From the IMG/VR virus record IMGVR_UViG_2563366822_000008: DNA of 24,713 bases; one strand, 5' to 3'. The DNA comes from a virus (lineage: Duplodnaviria; Heunggongvirae; Uroviricota; Caudoviricetes). Every line of letters begins with the position of its first letter. Positions within the stretch are counted from its first letter, which is position 1. The position numbers and the translations under genes were made by a program. Of the stretch, positions 6,638 to 11,219 are shown piece by piece. Below the pieces are notes generated by a model that had not been told where the DNA came from, searched no databases, and saw nothing but the letters and a program-made list of their open reading frames with translations.

Positions 6638-6647
6638 GGAGGTGGTA

Positions 6648-7391
6648 ATGACCACACCAAATCCACTGGCAAAGACGAAAGGTGCGGGGACGACGTTCTG
6701 GATGTATACCGGCAACGGCGATGCGTTTGCGAACCCTTTGTCGGACACTGACTGGCTGCGTCTTGCGATGGTGAAGGATCTGCAACCTGGCGAAATGACC
6801 GCTGATGCAGAAGATGACACTTATCTCGATGATGAAGATGCAGACTGGAAAACGACAACCCAGGGGCAGAAATCCGTTGGTGATACTTCGGCGACGCTGG
6901 CCTGGCGTCCGGGTGACAGCGGGCAGAAAAAACTGGTTCAGTTGTTCGACTCCGGTGAAGTCTGCGCGTTTCGTATCAAATATCCCAACGGCACTGTTGA
7001 TGTTTTCCGTGGCTGGCTGAGCTCACTGGGTAAAACCATTGCCTCAAAAGACGTGATGACCCGCACTGTGAAAATCAGCGGTGTGGGGCGTCCGTATCTG
7101 GCAGAGGAAGGCACTGAAACCGTGAGCGTTACCGGGCTGACAGTATCACCGGCGTCTGCCAGTGTAAAAGTGGGAGCAACCACCACGCTGACCTTTACAG
7201 TAAAACCTGACGGAGCCAGTGACAAAGCGAGCAGTGTGCATTCGTCAGATCCACAGACTGCCACGGTTACCCTGAACGGACTTGTGGCCACGGTAAAAGG
7301 CGTGAAGCAGGGCAGTGTCAGCATTGTGGGCATGACCGCTGACGGGAATTTTGTGGCTGTGACTGCGGTGACTGTCAGCGCAGCAGGTTAA
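6648..7391 (+). CDS. V: Major tail protein V with C-terminal Ig-like (Big_2-type) domain
   Basis: AGGAGG RBS 6638-6643, ATG 6648. N-terminal tube domain and a Thr/Val/Ser-rich C-terminal Ig-like region as in lambda V. Confidence 0.85.
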   Translation: MTTPNPLAKTKGAGTTFWMYTGNGDAFANPLSDTDWLRLAMVKDLQPGEMTADAEDDTYLDDEDADWKTTTQGQKSVGDTSATLAWRPGDSGQKKLVQLFDSGEVCAFRIKYPNGTVDVFRGWLSSLGKTIASKDVMTRTVKISGVGRPYLAEEGTETVSVTGLTVSPASASVKVGATTTLTFTVKPDGASDKASSVHSSDPQTATVTLNGLVATVKGVKQGSVSIVGMTADGNFVAVTAVTVSAAG

Positions 7392-7411
7392 CAGGACGAT
7401 ACTCATCATTT

Positions 7412-7436
7412 GCCCCGGTTATGCGGGGCTTTTTTG
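7412..7436 (+). terminator. Intrinsic terminator after V
   Basis: GCCCCG-GTTATG-CGGGGC hairpin (7412-7429) followed by TTTTTT (7430-7435). Confidence 0.65.
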
Positions 7437-7448
7437 CAGGTGGAGAAC

Positions 7449-7856
7449 ATGATGTTTCTGAAACAGGACACGTTTAATTATGAAAAACAGTCCGTGGTGC
7501 TCAGTGAGCTGTCCGGGCTGCAGAGAATTGAATATCTGATGTTTGTTCAGCAGCGAACGGCAAAGTTTGATGCCGGGGAGGGAGAACTGCCGGAGGCTGA
7601 ACGACAGATTGCTTTTCTGCGGATGGGGATGGATATCAATGCCTGGCTGGTTTCCCGCTCACTGTGGAATGCGGAACAGTCTCAGGATGTTGAGACGCTT
7701 TACGCATCCGTTATTACAACATGGTCGTATGATGCCCTGGGGGCGGGGGCGGGGGCGGGGGCGGGGGCGGAGATGGTTCTGTCGCTGAGCGGTATGGGGG
7801 CCATTGATAATGCCGGGGATTTGGAGCATGAGGTGCTGACGCCGGAAAAGTCCTGA
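7449..7856 (+). CDS. G: Tail assembly chaperone G
   Basis: MMFLKQD...LSELSGLQRIE matches the lambda G N-terminus (MFLK...LSELSALQRIE). GGTGGAG RBS. Stop TGA at 7854-7856. Confidence 0.85.
   Translation: MMFLKQDTFNYEKQSVVLSELSGLQRIEYLMFVQQRTAKFDAGEGELPEAERQIAFLRMGMDINAWLVSRSLWNAEQSQDVETLYASVITTWSYDALGAGAGAGAGAEMVLSLSGMGAIDNAGDLEHEVLTPEKS
7739..7769 (+). repeat. (GGGGGC)x5 hexanucleotide tandem repeat inside G, encoding (Gly-Ala)5
   Basis: Read directly: five G5 tracts separated by single C. In frame, giving GAGAGAGAGA in the protein. Confidence 0.95.
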
Positions 7857-8194
7857 CGCGGGAAATGCAGTTTGTCATGCGGCTTGCCCGGGAGTTCCGG
7901 CGGGCAGACTGGCGGCGGATGCTGTCGGAAATGTCGGCCACTGAGCTTGGTGAGTGGGGCGATTATTTCCGGATGCAGAGCTTCAGTGATGTGTGGATGG
8001 ATGCGCAGTTTGCCTCGCTGAAGGCATTGATCGTGAGAATGGTGTCCGGCAGCAGTGATGCTGCGGTGGCTGATTTCAGCCTTTTACCGGAAGAGAACGG
8101 GATACCGGAGCGAACGGACGAAGAACTGATGCATCTTGGGGAAGGTATTTCCGGAGGTGTGCGTTATGGACCAGATAGCCAACCTGGTCATTGA
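7832..8194 (+). CDS. T: T segment of the tail assembly chaperone G-T fusion, predicted to be expressed by -1 programmed ribosomal frameshift from G
   Basis: The -1 frame relative to G is open from 7832 (after an in-frame TGA at 7829-7831) to 8194 and overlaps the last eight codons of G. The only candidate slip site in the overlap is GGAAAAG at 7844-7850. Position between G and H is as in lambda. Confidence 0.6.
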   Translation, partial: GADAGKVLTREMQFVMRLAREFRRADWRRMLSEMSATELGEWGDYFRMQSFSDVWMDAQFASLKALIVRMVSGSSDAAVADFSLLPEENGIPERTDEELMHLGEGISGGVRYGPDSQPGH

Positions 8195-11100
8195 TTTGGG
8201 GATTGATGCGGCAGAGTTTAAAAATGAAATTCCCCGTATCAAAAACCTTCTGAATGGTGCAGCCAGCGATGCAGAACGGTCTTCTGCCCGTATGCAGCGT
8301 TTTATGGAGCGTCAGACTCAGGCCGCCCGGCAGACAACGCAGGCGGCGTCTTCGGCTGCAACAGCCGCATCCGTCCATGCGCAGACGGTGGAGAAGAACG
8401 CACAGGCTCATGAACGCATGGCCCGCGAGGTGGAGAAAACCCGCCAGCGTATGGAGGCACTGAGCCAGAAAATGCGCGAGGAACAGGCGCAGGCCATGGC
8501 TCTGGCGGAGGCTCAGGATAAAGCAGCTGCTGCGTTTTATCGTCAGATTGACAGTGTGAAACAGGCCAGTGCGGGGCTGCAGGAATTACAGCGTATTCAG
8601 CAGCAGATCCGACAGGCCAGAAACAGTGGCGGGATTGGTCAGCAGGATTATCTGGCACTGATTTCTGAGGTTACGGCGAAAACCCGTGTTCTTACACAGG
8701 CTGAGGAAGAGGCTACCCGACAGAAAGTGGCGTTTATCCGTCAGCTTAAAGAGCAGGCAACCCGCCAGAATCTTTCTTCTTCTGAGTTGCTTCGTGCTAA
8801 GGCTGCCCAGCTGGGGGTAAGCAGTGCTGCAGAAGTGTATATCCGCAAAATGGAGCAGGCAGGAAAAACCACGCATTCGCTGGGTCTGAAAAGTGCAGCG
8901 GCCCGCCAGGAGATAGGCGTTCTGATAGGTGAACTGGCCCGCGGCAATTTAGGGGCGCTGAGGGGATCCGGGATAACGCTGGCTAACCGTGCCGGATGGA
9001 TAGACACTCTGATGTCACCGAAAGGCATGATGCTTGGCGGTATTGCCGCGTCCGTCTATGGTCTGGGTAAAGCCTGGTATGACGGTCAGAAGGAGGGGGA
9101 AGAATTTAACCGCCAGTTGTCGCTGACGGGGCATTATGCCGGAGTCACTGCCGGGCAGCTGTGGACGCTCAGTCGTGCTATTTCCGGGAATGGTATCACG
9201 CAACATGCTGCAGCCGGTGTGCTGGCTCAGGTGGTGGGGAGTGGTGCATTTCGTGGAAACGATATCGGTATGGTGGCGAGAGCTGCCGCACAGATGGAGC
9301 GATCGGTTGGCCAGTCGGTCAGCGATACCATAAATCAGTTTAAGCGGCTGAAGGATGATCCTGTAAATGCCGCGAAGGCTCTGGACAATGAGCTGCATTT
9401 TCTTACTGCCACTCAGCTTGAGCAGATACGTGTCCTTGGGGATCAGGGACGGTCCAGTGATGCTGCACGGATAGCCATGTCTGCACTGGCAGAGGAAACC
9501 GGTCGGCGTACTGCGGATATTGATAATAACCTCAATGCGCTTGGCAGTACGCTGAAGTATCTGTCTGATTTGTGGAGTCGTTTCTGGGATGCGGCCATGA
9601 ATATTGGTCGTGAAGACTCGCTGGATGAACAGATTGCCGCTTTACAGGAGAAAGTGTCGCGGGCGAAAAGACTCCCCTGGACGGCATCATCTTCTCAGGT
9701 TGAATACGATCAGCAGCGTCTTAACGATCTTCAGGAGAAAAAACGCCAGAAGGATTTGCAGGATGCAAAAGAGCAGGCAGAGCGGAATTATCAGGAGCAA
9801 CAGAAACGACGTAATGCTGAAAATGCTGCACTGAACCGGATGAATGAAACGGAAGCAGCACGACATCAGCGTGAAATTGCGCGTATTAATTCCATGCAGT
9901 ACGCCGATCAGGCTGTCAGGGATGCAGCGATACAACGTGAAAATGAACGTTACGAGAAAGCCCTGGCATCCGGTAAGAAAAAAACACGCGAAACCCGTAA
10001 TGATGAGGCCACCCGGTTATTGCTGCAGTACAGTCAGCAACAGGCACAGGTGGAAGGACAGATTGCTGCTGCAAGACAGTCAGCAGGCATTGCCACTGAA
10101 AAGATGACAGAAGCGCATAAACAGCTTCTGGCTCTGCAGCAGCGCATCAGCGATCTGGACGGGAAAAAACTGACGGCAGATGAAAAGAGTGTGCTGGCCC
10201 GTAAAGATGAACTGATTCAGGCACTGACGCTGCTGGATGTAAAACAGCAGGAGCTTCAGAAACAGACGGCACTCAACGATCTGAAGAAAAAAACAATTCA
10301 GCTGACCAGTCAACTGGCTGAAGAAGAGCTCGCTCAGCGTCAGCAACATGACCTGGATATCGCCACGGTGGGTATGGGTGATCAGCAGCGGCAGCGATAT
10401 CAGGTACAACTGAGTCTTCGCCAGAAATACCAGCAACAGCTGGAGCAGTTGAGGCGGGATAGTGAGCAGAAAGGGACATATAACACGGATGACCACAGAA
10501 AGGCCGAGCAGGCGCTGACGGAGAGCCTGAACCGACAACTGAATGAGAATCGCCGTTACTGGCAACAGCTTGAAGTTGTGCAGGGTAACTGGAAAAACGG
10601 AGTCCTGCGTGCATTTCAGGATTTTACCGTGGATGCAGACAATACGGCAGGAACAGCAGAACAGGTGTTCTCGTCAGCCTTCAGCAACATGGGAAATGGC
10701 CTGGCAACTTTTGTCACTACCGGCAAACTCAACTTCAAATCCTTCACCTCTTCGGTGCTGTCAGATATGGCGAAAATCCTGGCGCAGGCAACCATGATGA
10801 AATCGATAAAAGGGATTGGCAGTGTACTGGGATTTGATCTCAGCAGCCTTTCCCTGAATGCCAATGGGGGGATTTATCAGTCTGCTGATTTGAGTCGTTA
10901 CAGTGGCACGGTGGTTAACCGTCCGACGTTTTTTGCTTTTGCAAAAGGCGCGGGTGTGATGGGGGAAGCTGGACCTGAAGCCATTCTGCCACTGCGTCGT
11001 GGTGCTGACGGTAAGCTGGGGGTTGTGGCGGATATTGGTGGTTCAGGTATGGCGATGTTTGCCCCGCAGTACAACATCGAGATCAATAACGATGGCACGA

Positions 11101-11219
11101 ACGGGCAGATAGGTCCGGCTGCCCTGAAGGTGCTTTATGACCTTGGGAAAAAAGCGGCAGCGGACTTTATGCAACAGCAGGCCCGTGATGGTGGTCGGTT
11201 AAGTGGAGCATATCGGTAA
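8166..11219 (+). CDS. H: Tail tape measure protein H (about 1017 aa)
   Basis: N-terminus MDQIANLVIDLGIDAAEFKNE matches lambda H MAEPVGDLVVDLSLDAARFDEQ, and the C-terminus INNDGTNGQIGPAALKVLYDL...RDGG matches lambda H. Long Gln/Glu/Arg-rich coiled-coil centre. GGAGG RBS at 8152-8156. Confidence 0.9.
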   Translation: MDQIANLVIDLGIDAAEFKNEIPRIKNLLNGAASDAERSSARMQRFMERQTQAARQTTQAASSAATAASVHAQTVEKNAQAHERMAREVEKTRQRMEALSQKMREEQAQAMALAEAQDKAAAAFYRQIDSVKQASAGLQELQRIQQQIRQARNSGGIGQQDYLALISEVTAKTRVLTQAEEEATRQKVAFIRQLKEQATRQNLSSSELLRAKAAQLGVSSAAEVYIRKMEQAGKTTHSLGLKSAAARQEIGVLIGELARGNLGALRGSGITLANRAGWIDTLMSPKGMMLGGIAASVYGLGKAWYDGQKEGEEFNRQLSLTGHYAGVTAGQLWTLSRAISGNGITQHAAAGVLAQVVGSGAFRGNDIGMVARAAAQMERSVGQSVSDTINQFKRLKDDPVNAAKALDNELHFLTATQLEQIRVLGDQGRSSDAARIAMSALAEETGRRTADIDNNLNALGSTLKYLSDLWSRFWDAAMNIGREDSLDEQIAALQEKVSRAKRLPWTASSSQVEYDQQRLNDLQEKKRQKDLQDAKEQAERNYQEQQKRRNAENAALNRMNETEAARHQREIARINSMQYADQAVRDAAIQRENERYEKALASGKKKTRETRNDEATRLLLQYSQQQAQVEGQIAAARQSAGIATEKMTEAHKQLLALQQRISDLDGKKLTADEKSVLARKDELIQALTLLDVKQQELQKQTALNDLKKKTIQLTSQLAEEELAQRQQHDLDIATVGMGDQQRQRYQVQLSLRQKYQQQLEQLRRDSEQKGTYNTDDHRKAEQALTESLNRQLNENRRYWQQLEVVQGNWKNGVLRAFQDFTVDADNTAGTAEQVFSSAFSNMGNGLATFVTTGKLNFKSFTSSVLSDMAKILAQATMMKSIKGIGSVLGFDLSSLSLNANGGIYQSADLSRYSGTVVNRPTFFAFAKGAGVMGEAGPEAILPLRRGADGKLGVVADIGGSGMAMFAPQYNIEINNDGTNGQIGPAALKVLYDLGKKAAADFMQQQARDGGRLSGAYR

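What the first reader, a model, noticed from the sequence alone, without database searches (positions are those of the whole stretch)
7832..7870. G-T frameshift window carries GGAAAAG rather than the canonical GGGAAAG heptamer
The -1 frame is open only from 7832, and G stops at 7856, so the shift must occur in this 25-nt overlap. The only plausible slippery sequence there is CCG GAA AAG (7842-7850). Lambda uses G GGA AAG. Here the A-site Lys codon can still re-pair AAG to AAA, but P-site re-pairing (GAA to GGA) is mismatched. This predicts either reduced frameshift efficiency or an A-site-driven mechanism, and it would change the G to G-T ratio that is important for tail assembly.
Basis: partly seen in the sequence, partly recalled or inferred. 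Interest (0 to 1): 0.45.

Follow-up and report, generated by a model that had tools for sequence, protein, structure and literature searches.

The report
Ordinary phage tail G-T frameshift site
This is the usual ribosome-slipping signal that lambda-like phages use to make a small amount of a fused tail-assembly protein; its GGAAAAG spelling is the common, already annotated form in this gene family, and lambda's GGGAAAG is the exception.

Summary
Gene G (7449-7856) ends at TGA 7854-7856, and the -1 (T) frame is open from 7832. The only shift-prone sequence in the 25-nt overlap is G_GAA_AAG (7844-7850). It sits at exactly the position of lambda's G_GGA_AAG.

It is not an aberration or a sequencing error:
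- GGAAAAG is invariant in 17 related phages and 77 viral contigs, and about 1,830 E. coli genome records match with A at 7846.
- It is the heptamer in 15 of 20 divergent T-protein clusters across Enterobacterales.
- GenBank already marks it as the -1 slippery sequence in phages N15 and LLS.
- Lambda's GGGAAAG lineage is nested inside GGAAAAG lineages, so it looks derived.

Across the family the pattern is GGNAAAR. The first G is invariant although it is a synonymous third codon position in G. T-frame coding periodicity starts at the heptamer. Start codons in T are not conserved, and no conserved 3' structure or SD-like stimulator was found.

Most likely mechanism: a low-level -1 tandem slip, with tRNA-Lys moving AAG to AAA and tRNA-Glu moving GAA to GGA (a middle G.U pair). 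This would give a 248-aa G-T fusion. The efficiency is unmeasured, and in vitro work treats this heptamer as poorly slippery. The finding is known and ordinary, so interest is low.

The parts
7449..7856 (+). Gene G, the tail assembly chaperone (135 aa, MMFLKQ...LTPEKS*). The zero-frame product ends at TGA 7854-7856.
   Evidence: ORF list and translation. Pfam PF06894 Phage_TAC_2, E = 1.7e-37. The start corresponds to the annotated start of mEp460 gene 011.
7829..7831 (+). TGA in the -1 (T) frame. It closes that frame upstream, so the shift cannot occur before 7832.
   Evidence: Sequence and script.
7832..7856 (+). The 25-nt G/T overlap in which the -1 shift must occur.
   Evidence: Across the family the common overlap shrinks to -3..+9 around the heptamer (L283-type versus Proteus L015).
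7844..7850 (+). Slippery heptamer G_GAA_AAG. Zero frame: GAA in the P site and AAG in the A site. -1 frame: GGA AAA.
   Evidence: It lies at the homologous position of lambda's G_GGA_AAG. Positions +0, +1, +3, +4 and +5 are invariant in 20 of 20 divergent clusters. The same heptamer is annotated as the slippery sequence in N15 and LLS.
7850..8194 (+). T segment read in the -1 frame after the slip (VLTREMQFVMRLAREF...GH*, 114 aa plus stop). The predicted G-T fusion is join(7449..7850,7850..8194), 248 aa.
   Evidence: Translation. Pfam PF06223 Phage_tail_T, E = 5.1e-15. T-frame codon periodicity of conservation starts at the heptamer. The peptide aligns collinearly with lambda's from GKV onward.
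7865..7867 (+). ATG that databases use as the start of a stand-alone T ORF. It is probably not the main route of T expression.
   Evidence: It is annotated as the T start in mEp460, cdtI, PhiR55_1 and RefSeq. An ATG at this codon offset (7) exists only in the window's cluster and one sister cluster. Nine of 20 clusters have no T-frame ATG before offset 17.
7830..7835 (+). GAGGTG, a Shine-Dalgarno-like hexamer 8 nt 5' of the heptamer. It is a candidate weak stimulator only.
   Evidence: The anti-SD duplex energy is -9.2 kcal/mol, but that is only the 15th percentile within its own G ORF. The element is not conserved across the family (median percentile 0.30). Close relatives read GAGGCG.

Best explanation
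Positions 7844-7850 are the programmed -1 ribosomal frameshift site of a lambda-type tail assembly chaperone pair in an E. coli lambdoid prophage of the mEp460/cdtI type.

Most ribosomes translate G to TGA 7854 and release the 135-aa chaperone. A small fraction slips back one base when GAA (7845-7847) is in the P site and AAG (7848-7850) is in the A site:
- tRNA-Lys (anticodon mnm5s2UUU) re-pairs perfectly from AAG to AAA.
- Peptidyl-tRNA-Glu (anticodon mnm5s2UUC) re-pairs from GAA to GGA with G:C, G.U and A:U pairs, which is near-cognate.

The next codon read is GUC (7850-7852). Translation then continues in the T frame to 8194 and gives a 248-aa G-T fusion with the junction ...TPEK|VLTREM....

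By analogy with lambda, the G part of the fusion binds the tape measure protein and the T part recruits the major tail protein. The G to G-T ratio is set by the slip frequency.

Shown here: the ORF geometry, the homology, the family-wide nucleotide-level conservation of GGNAAAR, and T-frame coding that starts at the heptamer. Inferred: that the slip actually occurs, that both tRNAs move, and that the efficiency is low.
For: - Gene context is V - G - T - H. G matches PF06894, T matches PF06223, and the tail tube and tape measure proteins flank them.
- The T-frame peptide aligns with lambda's from the very first codon of the heptamer: GKVLTREMQFVMRLAREF versus GKVFDGELSFALKLAREM.
- tblastn matches in 40 or more loci from other genera begin at query residue 1, which is at the heptamer.
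- Among 20 T clusters at 80% identity or less, the site is GGAAAAG in 15, GGGAAAG in 1, GGCAAAA+TAG in 3 and GGGAAAA+TAG in 1. More distant relatives use AAAAAAG, GGGAAAG and CCCAAAA. A_AAR is universal.
- In the conservation profile the upstream G tail carries 0.04-1.25 bits per position. Positions +0, +1, +3, +4 and +5 carry 2 bits. Downstream the pattern is 3-periodic in the T frame.
- Position +0 (G) is the third base of CCG, CTG, GCG, GTG, ACG, TTG or ATG codons, yet it is always G. Background third-position G use in such codons of the same G ORFs is 39%. This argues for P-site first-base re-pairing.
- Position +5 is always A although AAG would be synonymous in T.
- The family-wide intersection of the overlap windows is -3..+9.
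- T-frame start codons are not conserved.
- The identical heptamer is annotated as the -1 slippery sequence in N15 (misc_feature 10027-10033) and in LLS, where the CDS is joined.
- The literature describes A_AAG/NNA_AAG shift sites and G_GA-type intermediate heptamers (PMC5009743).
Against: - There is no direct protein or reporter evidence for this phage or, as far as I could find, for any GGAAAAG-type G-T site. The open-access search found no paper discussing it in phages.
- In a reconstituted E. coli system, AUG GAA AAG gave mainly zero-frame product and served as the 'less slippery' control (PMC6924986).
- In vivo, A_AAG tetramers without a strong stimulator were at about background (0.15% versus 0.11%) and reached 5.6% only with the IS3 pseudoknot (PMC4066793).
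- No significant or conserved downstream structure was found (z = -0.18 and -1.38; consensus energy -1.64 kcal/mol). No conserved SD-like element was found either. It is therefore unexplained how a useful shift level is reached.
- An in-frame ATG (7865) lies 8 nt after the G stop, so some independent T synthesis cannot be excluded.
Confidence: 0.82

Rival explanations
1. The site and product are the same, but only tRNA-Lys slips, as in A_AAG / NNA_AAG hexanucleotide shifting. This could happen in the A site, or in the P site while the next codon or the nearby stop is decoded slowly. tRNA-Glu would not need to re-pair, as the first reader's 'A-site-driven' option proposes.
For: - A_AAR is the only element shared by every family member, including GGCAAAA+TAG, AAAAAAG and CCCAAAA.
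- Position +2 varies freely among A, C and G.
- In the GCA_AAA_TAG variants, P-site tRNA-Ala could re-pair only poorly, and a stop codon follows directly. That fits single-tRNA P-site slippage.
- In the window the G stop lies one codon after AAG.
- Hexanucleotide sites such as IS1222 G_CGA_AAG are used naturally (PMC5009743).
Against: - G at +0 is invariant (20 of 20 clusters) at a synonymous third position of G-frame codons for P, L, A, V and T, and it is never translated in the T frame. Its conservation is best explained by re-pairing of base 36 of the P-site tRNA.
- Tetramer-only sites need strong stimulators (PMC4066793), and none is found here.
Confidence: 0.25
2. There is no frameshift. 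T is made as a stand-alone 109-aa protein from ATG 7865, as GenBank and RefSeq annotate it, by re-initiation after the G stop 8 nt upstream.
For: - All close relatives annotate T this way.
- ATG 7865 and ATG 7877 are in frame and close to the G stop.
Against: - An ATG at this offset exists only in the window's cluster and one sister cluster. In 9 of 20 clusters the first T-frame ATG lies at codon offset 17-25, which is inside or beyond the conserved LAREF..DWR motif. Gene callers pick different starts in different relatives.
- Lambda T has no start codon at this position (it reads CTG), and lambda uses frameshifting to make gpGT (PMC5009743).
- Homology and T-frame periodicity extend upstream of the ATG to the heptamer.
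- The only purine-rich stretch, GGGAA, lies directly against the ATG, which is too close for a normal SD spacing (inference).
- GGNAAAR invariance would be unexplained.
Confidence: 0.07
3. The GGAAAAG spelling is a sequencing error or a recent inactivating mutation of an ancestral GGGAAAG in a decaying prophage.
For: It differs from lambda's heptamer by a single transition at 7846.
Against: - It is identical in 17 isolated phages, including plaque-forming mEp460, Ayreon and phi458, and in 77 viral contigs.
- About 1,830 E. coli genome records were seeded through A7846, and none matched the GGGAAAG version perfectly.
- It is present in 15 divergent clusters from at least 12 genera.
- The lambda lineage is nested within GGAAAAG lineages.
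Confidence: 0.01
4. RNA polymerase slippage on the A run yields a minority mRNA with one fewer A, which fuses G and T at the RNA level.
For: The site contains a homopolymeric A run (7846-7849).
Against: - The run is only 4 A long. From general knowledge, productive transcriptional slippage in bacteria needs about 7-9 or more identical bases.
- Conservation of the flanking GG and of the reading-frame register (A_AAR always in the zero-frame register) is a ribosomal signature, not a polymerase one.
Confidence: 0.01

Closest known systems
Phage lambda G / G-T programmed -1 frameshift (G_GGA_AAG; Levin, Hendrix and Casjens 1993; Xu, Hendrix and Duda 2004, 2013, 2014, as cited in PMC5009743)
   Same: - Same gene order, V-G-T-H.
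- Same Pfam families (PF06894, PF06223).
- The shift site is at exactly the homologous codon pair.
- The T-frame peptide is collinear from GKV onward.
- The A-site codon is the same (AAG to AAA).
   Different: - The P-site codon is GAA (Glu) instead of GGA (Gly). Re-pairing therefore gives a middle-position G.U instead of a wobble-position G.U.
- The G stop lies 1 codon after the site instead of 5.
- T lacks lambda's C-terminal extension.
- T is only 39% identical.
Phage N15 genes 14/15 and phage LLS genes 11/12 (also HK225, phi80 and Fels-1)
   Same: The heptamer GGAAAAG is identical and sits at the homologous position. GenBank marks it as the 'slippery sequence for -1 translational frameshift' (N15) and the 'minus-one programmed translational frameshift site GGAAAAG' (LLS, with a joined CDS).
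   Different: - T is about 44% identical to the window's T.
- The G frame continues 5 codons past the site (…CCC TCG CCA GTG AGC TGA).
- No GAGG lies upstream.
- I found no accessible experimental measurement for these sites either.
Hexanucleotide / tetranucleotide A_AAG -1 shift sites (IS1222 G_CGA_AAG; Bacillus subtilis cdd A_CGA_AAG) and 'intermediate' G_GA-type heptamers of insect flaviviruses, mesoniviruses and umbraviruses (PMC5009743)
   Same: tRNA-Lys slips on A_AAG while the P-site tRNA can re-pair only imperfectly. Only the first base of the X_XX part is matched.
   Different: The insertion-sequence and viral examples rely on strong 3' stimulators (pseudoknots or hairpins). No such element is detectable or conserved here.
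E. coli dnaX A_AAA_AAG frameshift
   Same: Same shifty tRNA-Lys(UUU) on AAG. In the window an SD-like GAGGTG lies at about the dnaX spacing, roughly 10 nt 5' of the site.
   Different: dnaX has a fully cognate P-site re-pairing, a proven SD stimulator and a strong 3' hairpin, and its efficiency is high. Here the SD-like element is neither conserved nor statistically distinctive, and there is no hairpin.

Membership tests
Lambda-type tail assembly chaperone G/G-T -1 programmed frameshift | Two overlapping ORFs lie between the major tail (tube) gene and the tape measure gene. | tested here: met
   V-like gene at 6645-7391 (PF16461), G at 7449-7856, the T frame at 7832-8194 and an H-like gene at 8166-11219 (PF06791, PF09718).
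Lambda-type tail assembly chaperone G/G-T -1 programmed frameshift | The upstream ORF is homologous to gpG and the downstream segment is homologous to the T part of gpGT. | tested here: met
   PF06894 at 1.7e-37 and PF06223 at 5.1e-15. The window's T-frame translation is 36% identical to lambda T in the alignment and 38.9% by tblastn.
Lambda-type tail assembly chaperone G/G-T -1 programmed frameshift | The downstream ORF is in the -1 frame relative to G, and a shift-prone sequence lies in the overlap at a conserved position. | tested here: met
   Frame arithmetic. GGNAAAR occupies the homologous position in 20 of 20 clusters.
Lambda-type tail assembly chaperone G/G-T -1 programmed frameshift | The downstream segment has no conserved independent translation start. 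| tested here: met
   T-frame ATG positions differ between clusters. Nine of 20 clusters have none before codon offset 17, and annotated starts are inconsistent.
Lambda-type tail assembly chaperone G/G-T -1 programmed frameshift | A G-T fusion protein is made at a few percent of G and is required for tail assembly. | not testable with these tools
   This needs mass spectrometry, a western blot, a reporter assay or genetics. The roughly 30:1 ratio is known only for lambda (PMC5009743).
Canonical X_XXY_YYZ tandem-slippage heptamer | The first three bases are identical, so the P-site tRNA keeps two Watson-Crick pairs plus wobble after the shift. | tested here: not met
   The heptamer is G_GAA_AAG. 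Its third base is A, not G, so P-site re-pairing has a second-position G.U (PMC6924986).
Canonical X_XXY_YYZ tandem-slippage heptamer | Bases 4-6 are identical, so the A-site tRNA re-pairs cognately (AAG to AAA). | tested here: met
   Positions 7847-7849 are AAA and 7850 is G.
Z_ZZN / NNA_AAG single-tRNA (hexanucleotide) -1 shift sites | A_AAG is in the zero-frame register. | tested here: met
   A7847 is followed by the zero-frame codon AAG at 7848-7850.
Z_ZZN / NNA_AAG single-tRNA (hexanucleotide) -1 shift sites | The site depends on a strong 3' stimulator (pseudoknot or hairpin), as Sharma et al. 2014 reported for tetramers. | tested here: not met
   No downstream fold stands out from shuffles (z = -0.18 and -1.38). 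There is no conserved structure in 20 relatives (-1.64 kcal/mol).
Z_ZZN / NNA_AAG single-tRNA (hexanucleotide) -1 shift sites | There is no constraint on the base 5' of the P-site codon. | tested here: not met
   Position +0 is G in 20 of 20 clusters although it is a synonymous third position of G codons.

The most novel reading that the evidence does not exclude
The heptamer that mechanistic studies use as a poorly slippery control (G GAA AAG, with a second-position P-site mismatch) appears to be the ancestral and predominant natural G-T recoding signal of lambda-like tails in Enterobacterales. It apparently works without any detectable RNA stimulator.

If the in vivo efficiency turns out to be comparable to lambda's few percent, that would point to one of two things:
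- An unrecognised stimulator, such as the nascent acidic G tail, the proximity of the stop codon, or a special property of mnm5s2U tRNA-Glu in the P site.
- A real tolerance of middle-position G.U pairs in the P site during tandem slippage.

If the efficiency is much lower, these phages assemble tails with a G to G-T ratio far from lambda's 30:1.
Probability: 0.2. Interest if true: 0.4.

Novelty: already known. Interest (0 to 1): 0.15.

Why it matters
Practically, the value is in annotation. In the close phage relatives and the two RefSeq genomes whose annotation I read, T is annotated as a separate gene and the G-T fusion is missing. The spread listing of the roughly 1,850 matching E. coli genome records names a separate T protein in the same way. 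The join for this window should be 7449..7850,7850..8194.

Scientifically, the comparison gives a clean natural-variation picture of what a bacterial -1 site needs: GGNAAAR, with the first G fixed at a synonymous site and the third base free. It also shows that lambda's textbook heptamer is the derived minority form.

It does not reveal a new mechanism. The one open question is quantitative: how much G-T this 'weak' heptamer produces without a stimulator.

Tried and rejected
- **Downstream stimulatory RNA structure.** Folds of 7851-7930 and 7810-7930 were not better than shuffles. RNAalifold on 20 diverse relatives found essentially nothing. Rejected.
- **Upstream SD-like stimulator (GAGGTG, 7830-7835).** The spacing is attractive, but the anti-SD energy is only the 15th percentile within its own gene, and the element is absent in N15-like, lambda and other clusters. 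GA at -14/-13 is explained by a conserved Glu codon in G. Kept only as an unsupported possibility.
- **Sequencing error or pseudogene.** Rejected. My mutated 55-nt query was not centred as intended (the mutation fell at position 30). It therefore seeded on the 5' 29 nt and still aligned, but every hit had exactly one mismatch, which answers the question anyway. It could not seed in copies with the GAGGCG upstream variant.
- **Literature.** Searches for GGAAAAG as a phage slippery sequence in open-access text found only the Rodnina-lab in vitro paper. Xu et al. 2004 and Licznar et al. 2003 are not held. I could not check whether they list or measure this heptamer.
- **First viral-contig scan.** The scan with the T alignment returned only near-identical copies. 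Diversity had to be obtained with separate queries and from genome contigs.
- **Biopython bootstrap.** The first run timed out. I redid it with a simple Kimura distance.
Full report
**1. What is at the coordinates**

The window is a lambdoid E. coli prophage or phage tail region. Bases 7400-8200 are 95-97% identical to phages mEp460, cdtI, Ayreon, phi458, Tritos and PhiR55_1. The same allele occurs in 1,848 of 5,426 complete E. coli genomes, including O157:H7 EDL933.

- Gene G runs from ATG 7449 to TGA 7854-7856 and encodes 135 aa (Pfam PF06894, lambda TAC protein G, E = 1.7e-37).
- The -1 frame is closed by TGA 7829-7831, open from 7832 to TGA 8192-8194, and encodes a PF06223 'minor tail protein T' domain (E = 5.1e-15).
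- A lambda-type tail tube gene lies upstream and a tape measure gene lies downstream.
- The zero frame reads ACG CCG GAA AAG TCC TGA. The -1 frame reads GGA AAA GTC.
- GGAAAAG occupies 7844-7850 and is the only in-register A_AAR in the 25-nt overlap.

The one slip is that the base differing from lambda's GGGAAAG is A7846, not 7845. The heptamer by itself is not rare in the window: 6 copies against 3.6 expected, and 13 of 100 shuffles had at least 6. Only position and conservation make it meaningful.

**2. It is the homologue of lambda's shift site**

Lambda reads GCG GGA AAG TGT TCG ACG GTG AGC TGA. In the -1 frame the two phages align without gaps from the first codon of the heptamer:
- lambda: GKVFDGELSFALKLAREMGRPDWRAML
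- window: GKVLTREMQFVMRLAREFRRADWRRML

The predicted fusion is join(7449..7850,7850..8194), 248 aa, with the junction ...LTPEK|VLTREM....

**3. It is not an error or a local oddity**

- The site and about 90 nt around it are identical in mEp460, cdtI, PhiR55_1 and Ayreon and in all 77 close viral contigs.
- A 55-nt query centred on 7846 hit 1,830 E. coli genome records. With a 28-base seed, each of those records must carry A7846. Of these, 1,275 matched at 100%.
- A GGGAAAG version of the query found no perfect match; all 1,277 of its hits had one mismatch.

**4. The wider family**

I collected loci encoding T relatives from one-genome-per-species bacterial contigs and from viral contigs. I then located the G-stop/T-frame overlap in each by script.

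Among 115 unique 170-nt contexts, 106 carry GGAAAAG. After clustering T proteins at 80% identity there are 20 clusters, with identity to the window down to about 39-45%. They are drawn from Escherichia, Salmonella, Citrobacter, Kluyvera, Leclercia, Buttiauxella, Klebsiella, Entomohabitans, Proteus, Providencia and Ewingella; Atlantibacter, Trabulsiella, Dryocola and Yokenella loci also carry GGAAAAG.
- GGAAAAG: 15 clusters
- GGGAAAG: 1 cluster (lambda itself)
- GGCAAAA followed directly by TAG: 3 clusters
- GGGAAAA followed directly by TAG: 1 cluster

More distant relatives use A_AAA_AAG (Stx2_14040 and Stx1 phages), G_GGA_AAG (the Stx2a_JNE phages) and C_CCA_AAA (Vibrio phage K243). Fels-1 has GGAAAAG.

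N15, HK225, phi80 and LLS all have GGAAAAG. GenBank already marks it as the 'slippery sequence for -1 translational frameshift' in N15 (misc_feature 10027-10033) and as the 'minus-one programmed translational frameshift site GGAAAAG', with a joined CDS, in LLS.

**5. Which form is ancestral**

I built a neighbour-joining tree of the T segments rooted on the Vibrio phage.
- It places lambda, Stx2a_JNE (both GGGAAAG) and Stx2_14040 (AAAAAAG) as one clade, with 100% bootstrap.
- That clade is nested within the N15/phi80/Leclercia/Buttiauxella/Entomohabitans group, whose other members all carry GGAAAAG. The enclosing clade has 92% bootstrap.
- The lambda group was never basal (0 of 100 replicates).
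- GGAAAAG also occurs in the Proteus/Providencia branch.

By parsimony GGAAAAG is ancestral in Enterobacterales and lambda's GGGAAAG is derived. Caveats: the protein is short, the distance method is simple, and phage genomes are mosaic.

**6. What selection preserves, and what that says about mechanism**

I anchored one representative per cluster on the site.
- The upstream G tail is poorly conserved (0.04-1.25 bits per position).
- Positions +0, +1, +3, +4 and +5 are invariant.
- Position +2 varies (A in 15, C in 3, G in 2) and position +6 is G in 16 and A in 4.
- From there on, conservation is 3-periodic in the T frame. Positions +18/+19, +27/+28, +42/+43 and +48/+49 are fixed while the third positions are free.

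Three details are informative:
- (a) Position +5 is always A although AAG would be synonymous in T. The -1 codon must be AAA.
- (b) Position +0 is always G although it is the third base of CCG, CTG, GCG, GTG, ACG, TTG or ATG in the G frame. Third-position G use in such codons of the same G ORFs is 39%. This base is not translated in the T frame if the slip happens on GAA-AAG.
- (c) The P-site amino acid varies (Glu, Gly, Ala), but its codon always starts with G.

Together these are the signature of a tandem slip in which the P-site tRNA keeps its first-position G:C pair. The central position may be G.U (Glu), G:C (Gly) or a mismatch (Ala; those cases have a stop codon directly after AAA and may use P-site-only slippage).

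The overlap windows of different relatives intersect only at -3..+9 (an L283-type locus opens the T frame one codon before GGA; in Proteus, TAA follows AAG directly). This pins the shift to the heptamer independently of any motif model.

From established knowledge of E. coli tRNAs: tRNA-Glu (mnm5s2UUC) on GGA gives G:C, G.U and A:U pairs, and tRNA-Lys (mnm5s2UUU) moves from AAG to a perfect AAA.

**7. Independent initiation of T**

Databases annotate T from ATG 7865. However:
- An ATG at that codon offset occurs only in the window's cluster and one sister cluster.
- 11 of 20 clusters have an ATG at offset 11. The other 9 have none before offset 17-25, which is inside or beyond the conserved LAREF..DWR motif.
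- Annotated starts differ from record to record.
- Homology and periodicity extend upstream of the ATG.

I rate stand-alone T as the main product at about 0.07. A minor contribution cannot be excluded.

**8. Stimulators**

- The 80 nt downstream folds no better than shuffles (z = -0.18). The 121-nt region gives z = -1.38.
- RNAalifold over 20 diverse relatives gives -1.64 kcal/mol and 7 trivial pairs.
- The upstream GAGGTG (7830-7835; GAGGCG in many relatives) sits at a dnaX-like distance and pairs with the anti-SD at -9.2 kcal/mol. That is only the 15th percentile within its own gene, and the family median percentile is 0.30. N15-like, phi80-like and lambda sequences have nothing comparable.
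- The conserved GA at -14/-13 is a Glu codon of G.

No conserved stimulator is supported.

**9. Comparison with the literature**

- Atkins et al. 2016 (PMC5009743) describe the lambda G/G-T shift and its 30:1 ratio.
- They also describe NNA_AAG 'hexanucleotide' sites, such as IS1222 G_CGA_AAG and B. subtilis cdd A_CGA_AAG, whose efficiency depends on the 5' codon's tRNA.
- They further list 'intermediate' heptamers whose X_XX part is G_GA.
- Sharma et al. 2014 (PMC4066793) found A_AAG to be the best tetramer. It stayed at about background without a stimulator and reached 5.6% with the IS3 pseudoknot. G_GGA_AAG was among the best heptamers.
- Peng et al. 2019 (PMC6924986) used AUG GAA AAG as the 'unfavourable' or 'less slippery' sequence because of the second-position mismatch, and saw mainly zero-frame product with wild-type EF-G.
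- PRFect (PMC10885494) lists a 'twofour' motif class among annotated tail-chaperone frameshifts. GGAAAAG appears to fit that class by name, but I could not see the definition figure.

Lambda itself needs only about 3%, so a weak site may be adequate.

**10. Verdict**

This is a normal member of the lambda-type G/G-T recoding system. It carries the family's commonest heptamer, which is already annotated in N15 and LLS. Novelty: already known. Interest: low.

The residual question is quantitative. How does a heptamer regarded as poorly slippery, without a detectable stimulator, deliver enough G-T? Alternatively, do these phages simply work at a different G to G-T ratio?

Noticed in passing
window 7739-7770: A perfect GGGGGC x5.3 tandem repeat lies inside G and encodes GAGAGAGAGA. 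It is 18 nt (3 units) longer than in the four phage relatives aligned. All 17 phage hits and nearly all listed E. coli prophage copies span 783 nt against 801 nt here. It looks like an in-frame variable repeat in the chaperone, and it puts a G-rich run on the mRNA strand about 75 nt 5' of the shift site.
   Followed up: partly
window 7412-7435: A terminator-like hairpin, GCCCCG-gttatg-CGGGGC followed by TTTTTT, lies between the major tail gene V and G. The equivalent element is annotated as a rho-independent terminator in mEp460, Ayreon and N15. It may lower G/T/H transcription relative to V.
   Followed up: partly
window 7865-8194, and the equivalent in relatives (L001-L006): GenBank records of mEp460, cdtI, PhiR55_1 and Ayreon, and the two RefSeq (PGAP) E. 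coli genomes whose annotation I read, give T as a stand-alone CDS with no ribosomal-slippage join. The listed hits among about 1,850 E. coli records name a separate T protein in the same way. This looks like a systematic annotation gap.
   Followed up: yes
L032-L051 (genome contigs): G/T sequence matching lambda's turns up on short or low-coverage contigs in assemblies labelled Neobacillus, Oceanobacillus, Kitasatospora, Shewanella, Pseudomonas, Leeuwenhoekiella, Chromatium, Enterococcus, Paenibacillus and others. This is almost certainly lambda DNA contamination of those assemblies. Similarly, near-identical copies of the window's own G/T sit in MAGs labelled 'Bacillota' and 'Proteobacteria' (L009, L010).
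   Followed up: no
window 8166-8194: The tape measure gene's ATG (8166) lies 29 nt inside the end of the T frame, whose stop is at 8192-8194. G-T and H are therefore translationally overlapped, as in the relatives.
   Followed up: no
L012, L013, L018, L030 (Kluyvera genomosp. 1, Ewingella, Klebsiella sp. BIGb0407, Providencia rustigianii): In these relatives the site is G_GCA_AAA or G_GGA_AAA followed immediately by TAG. In Proteus and Providencia heimbachae it is G_GAA_AAG followed by TAA or TAG. A stop codon directly after the slippery Lys codon suggests a termination-pause-assisted variant of the same recoding signal.
   Followed up: partly
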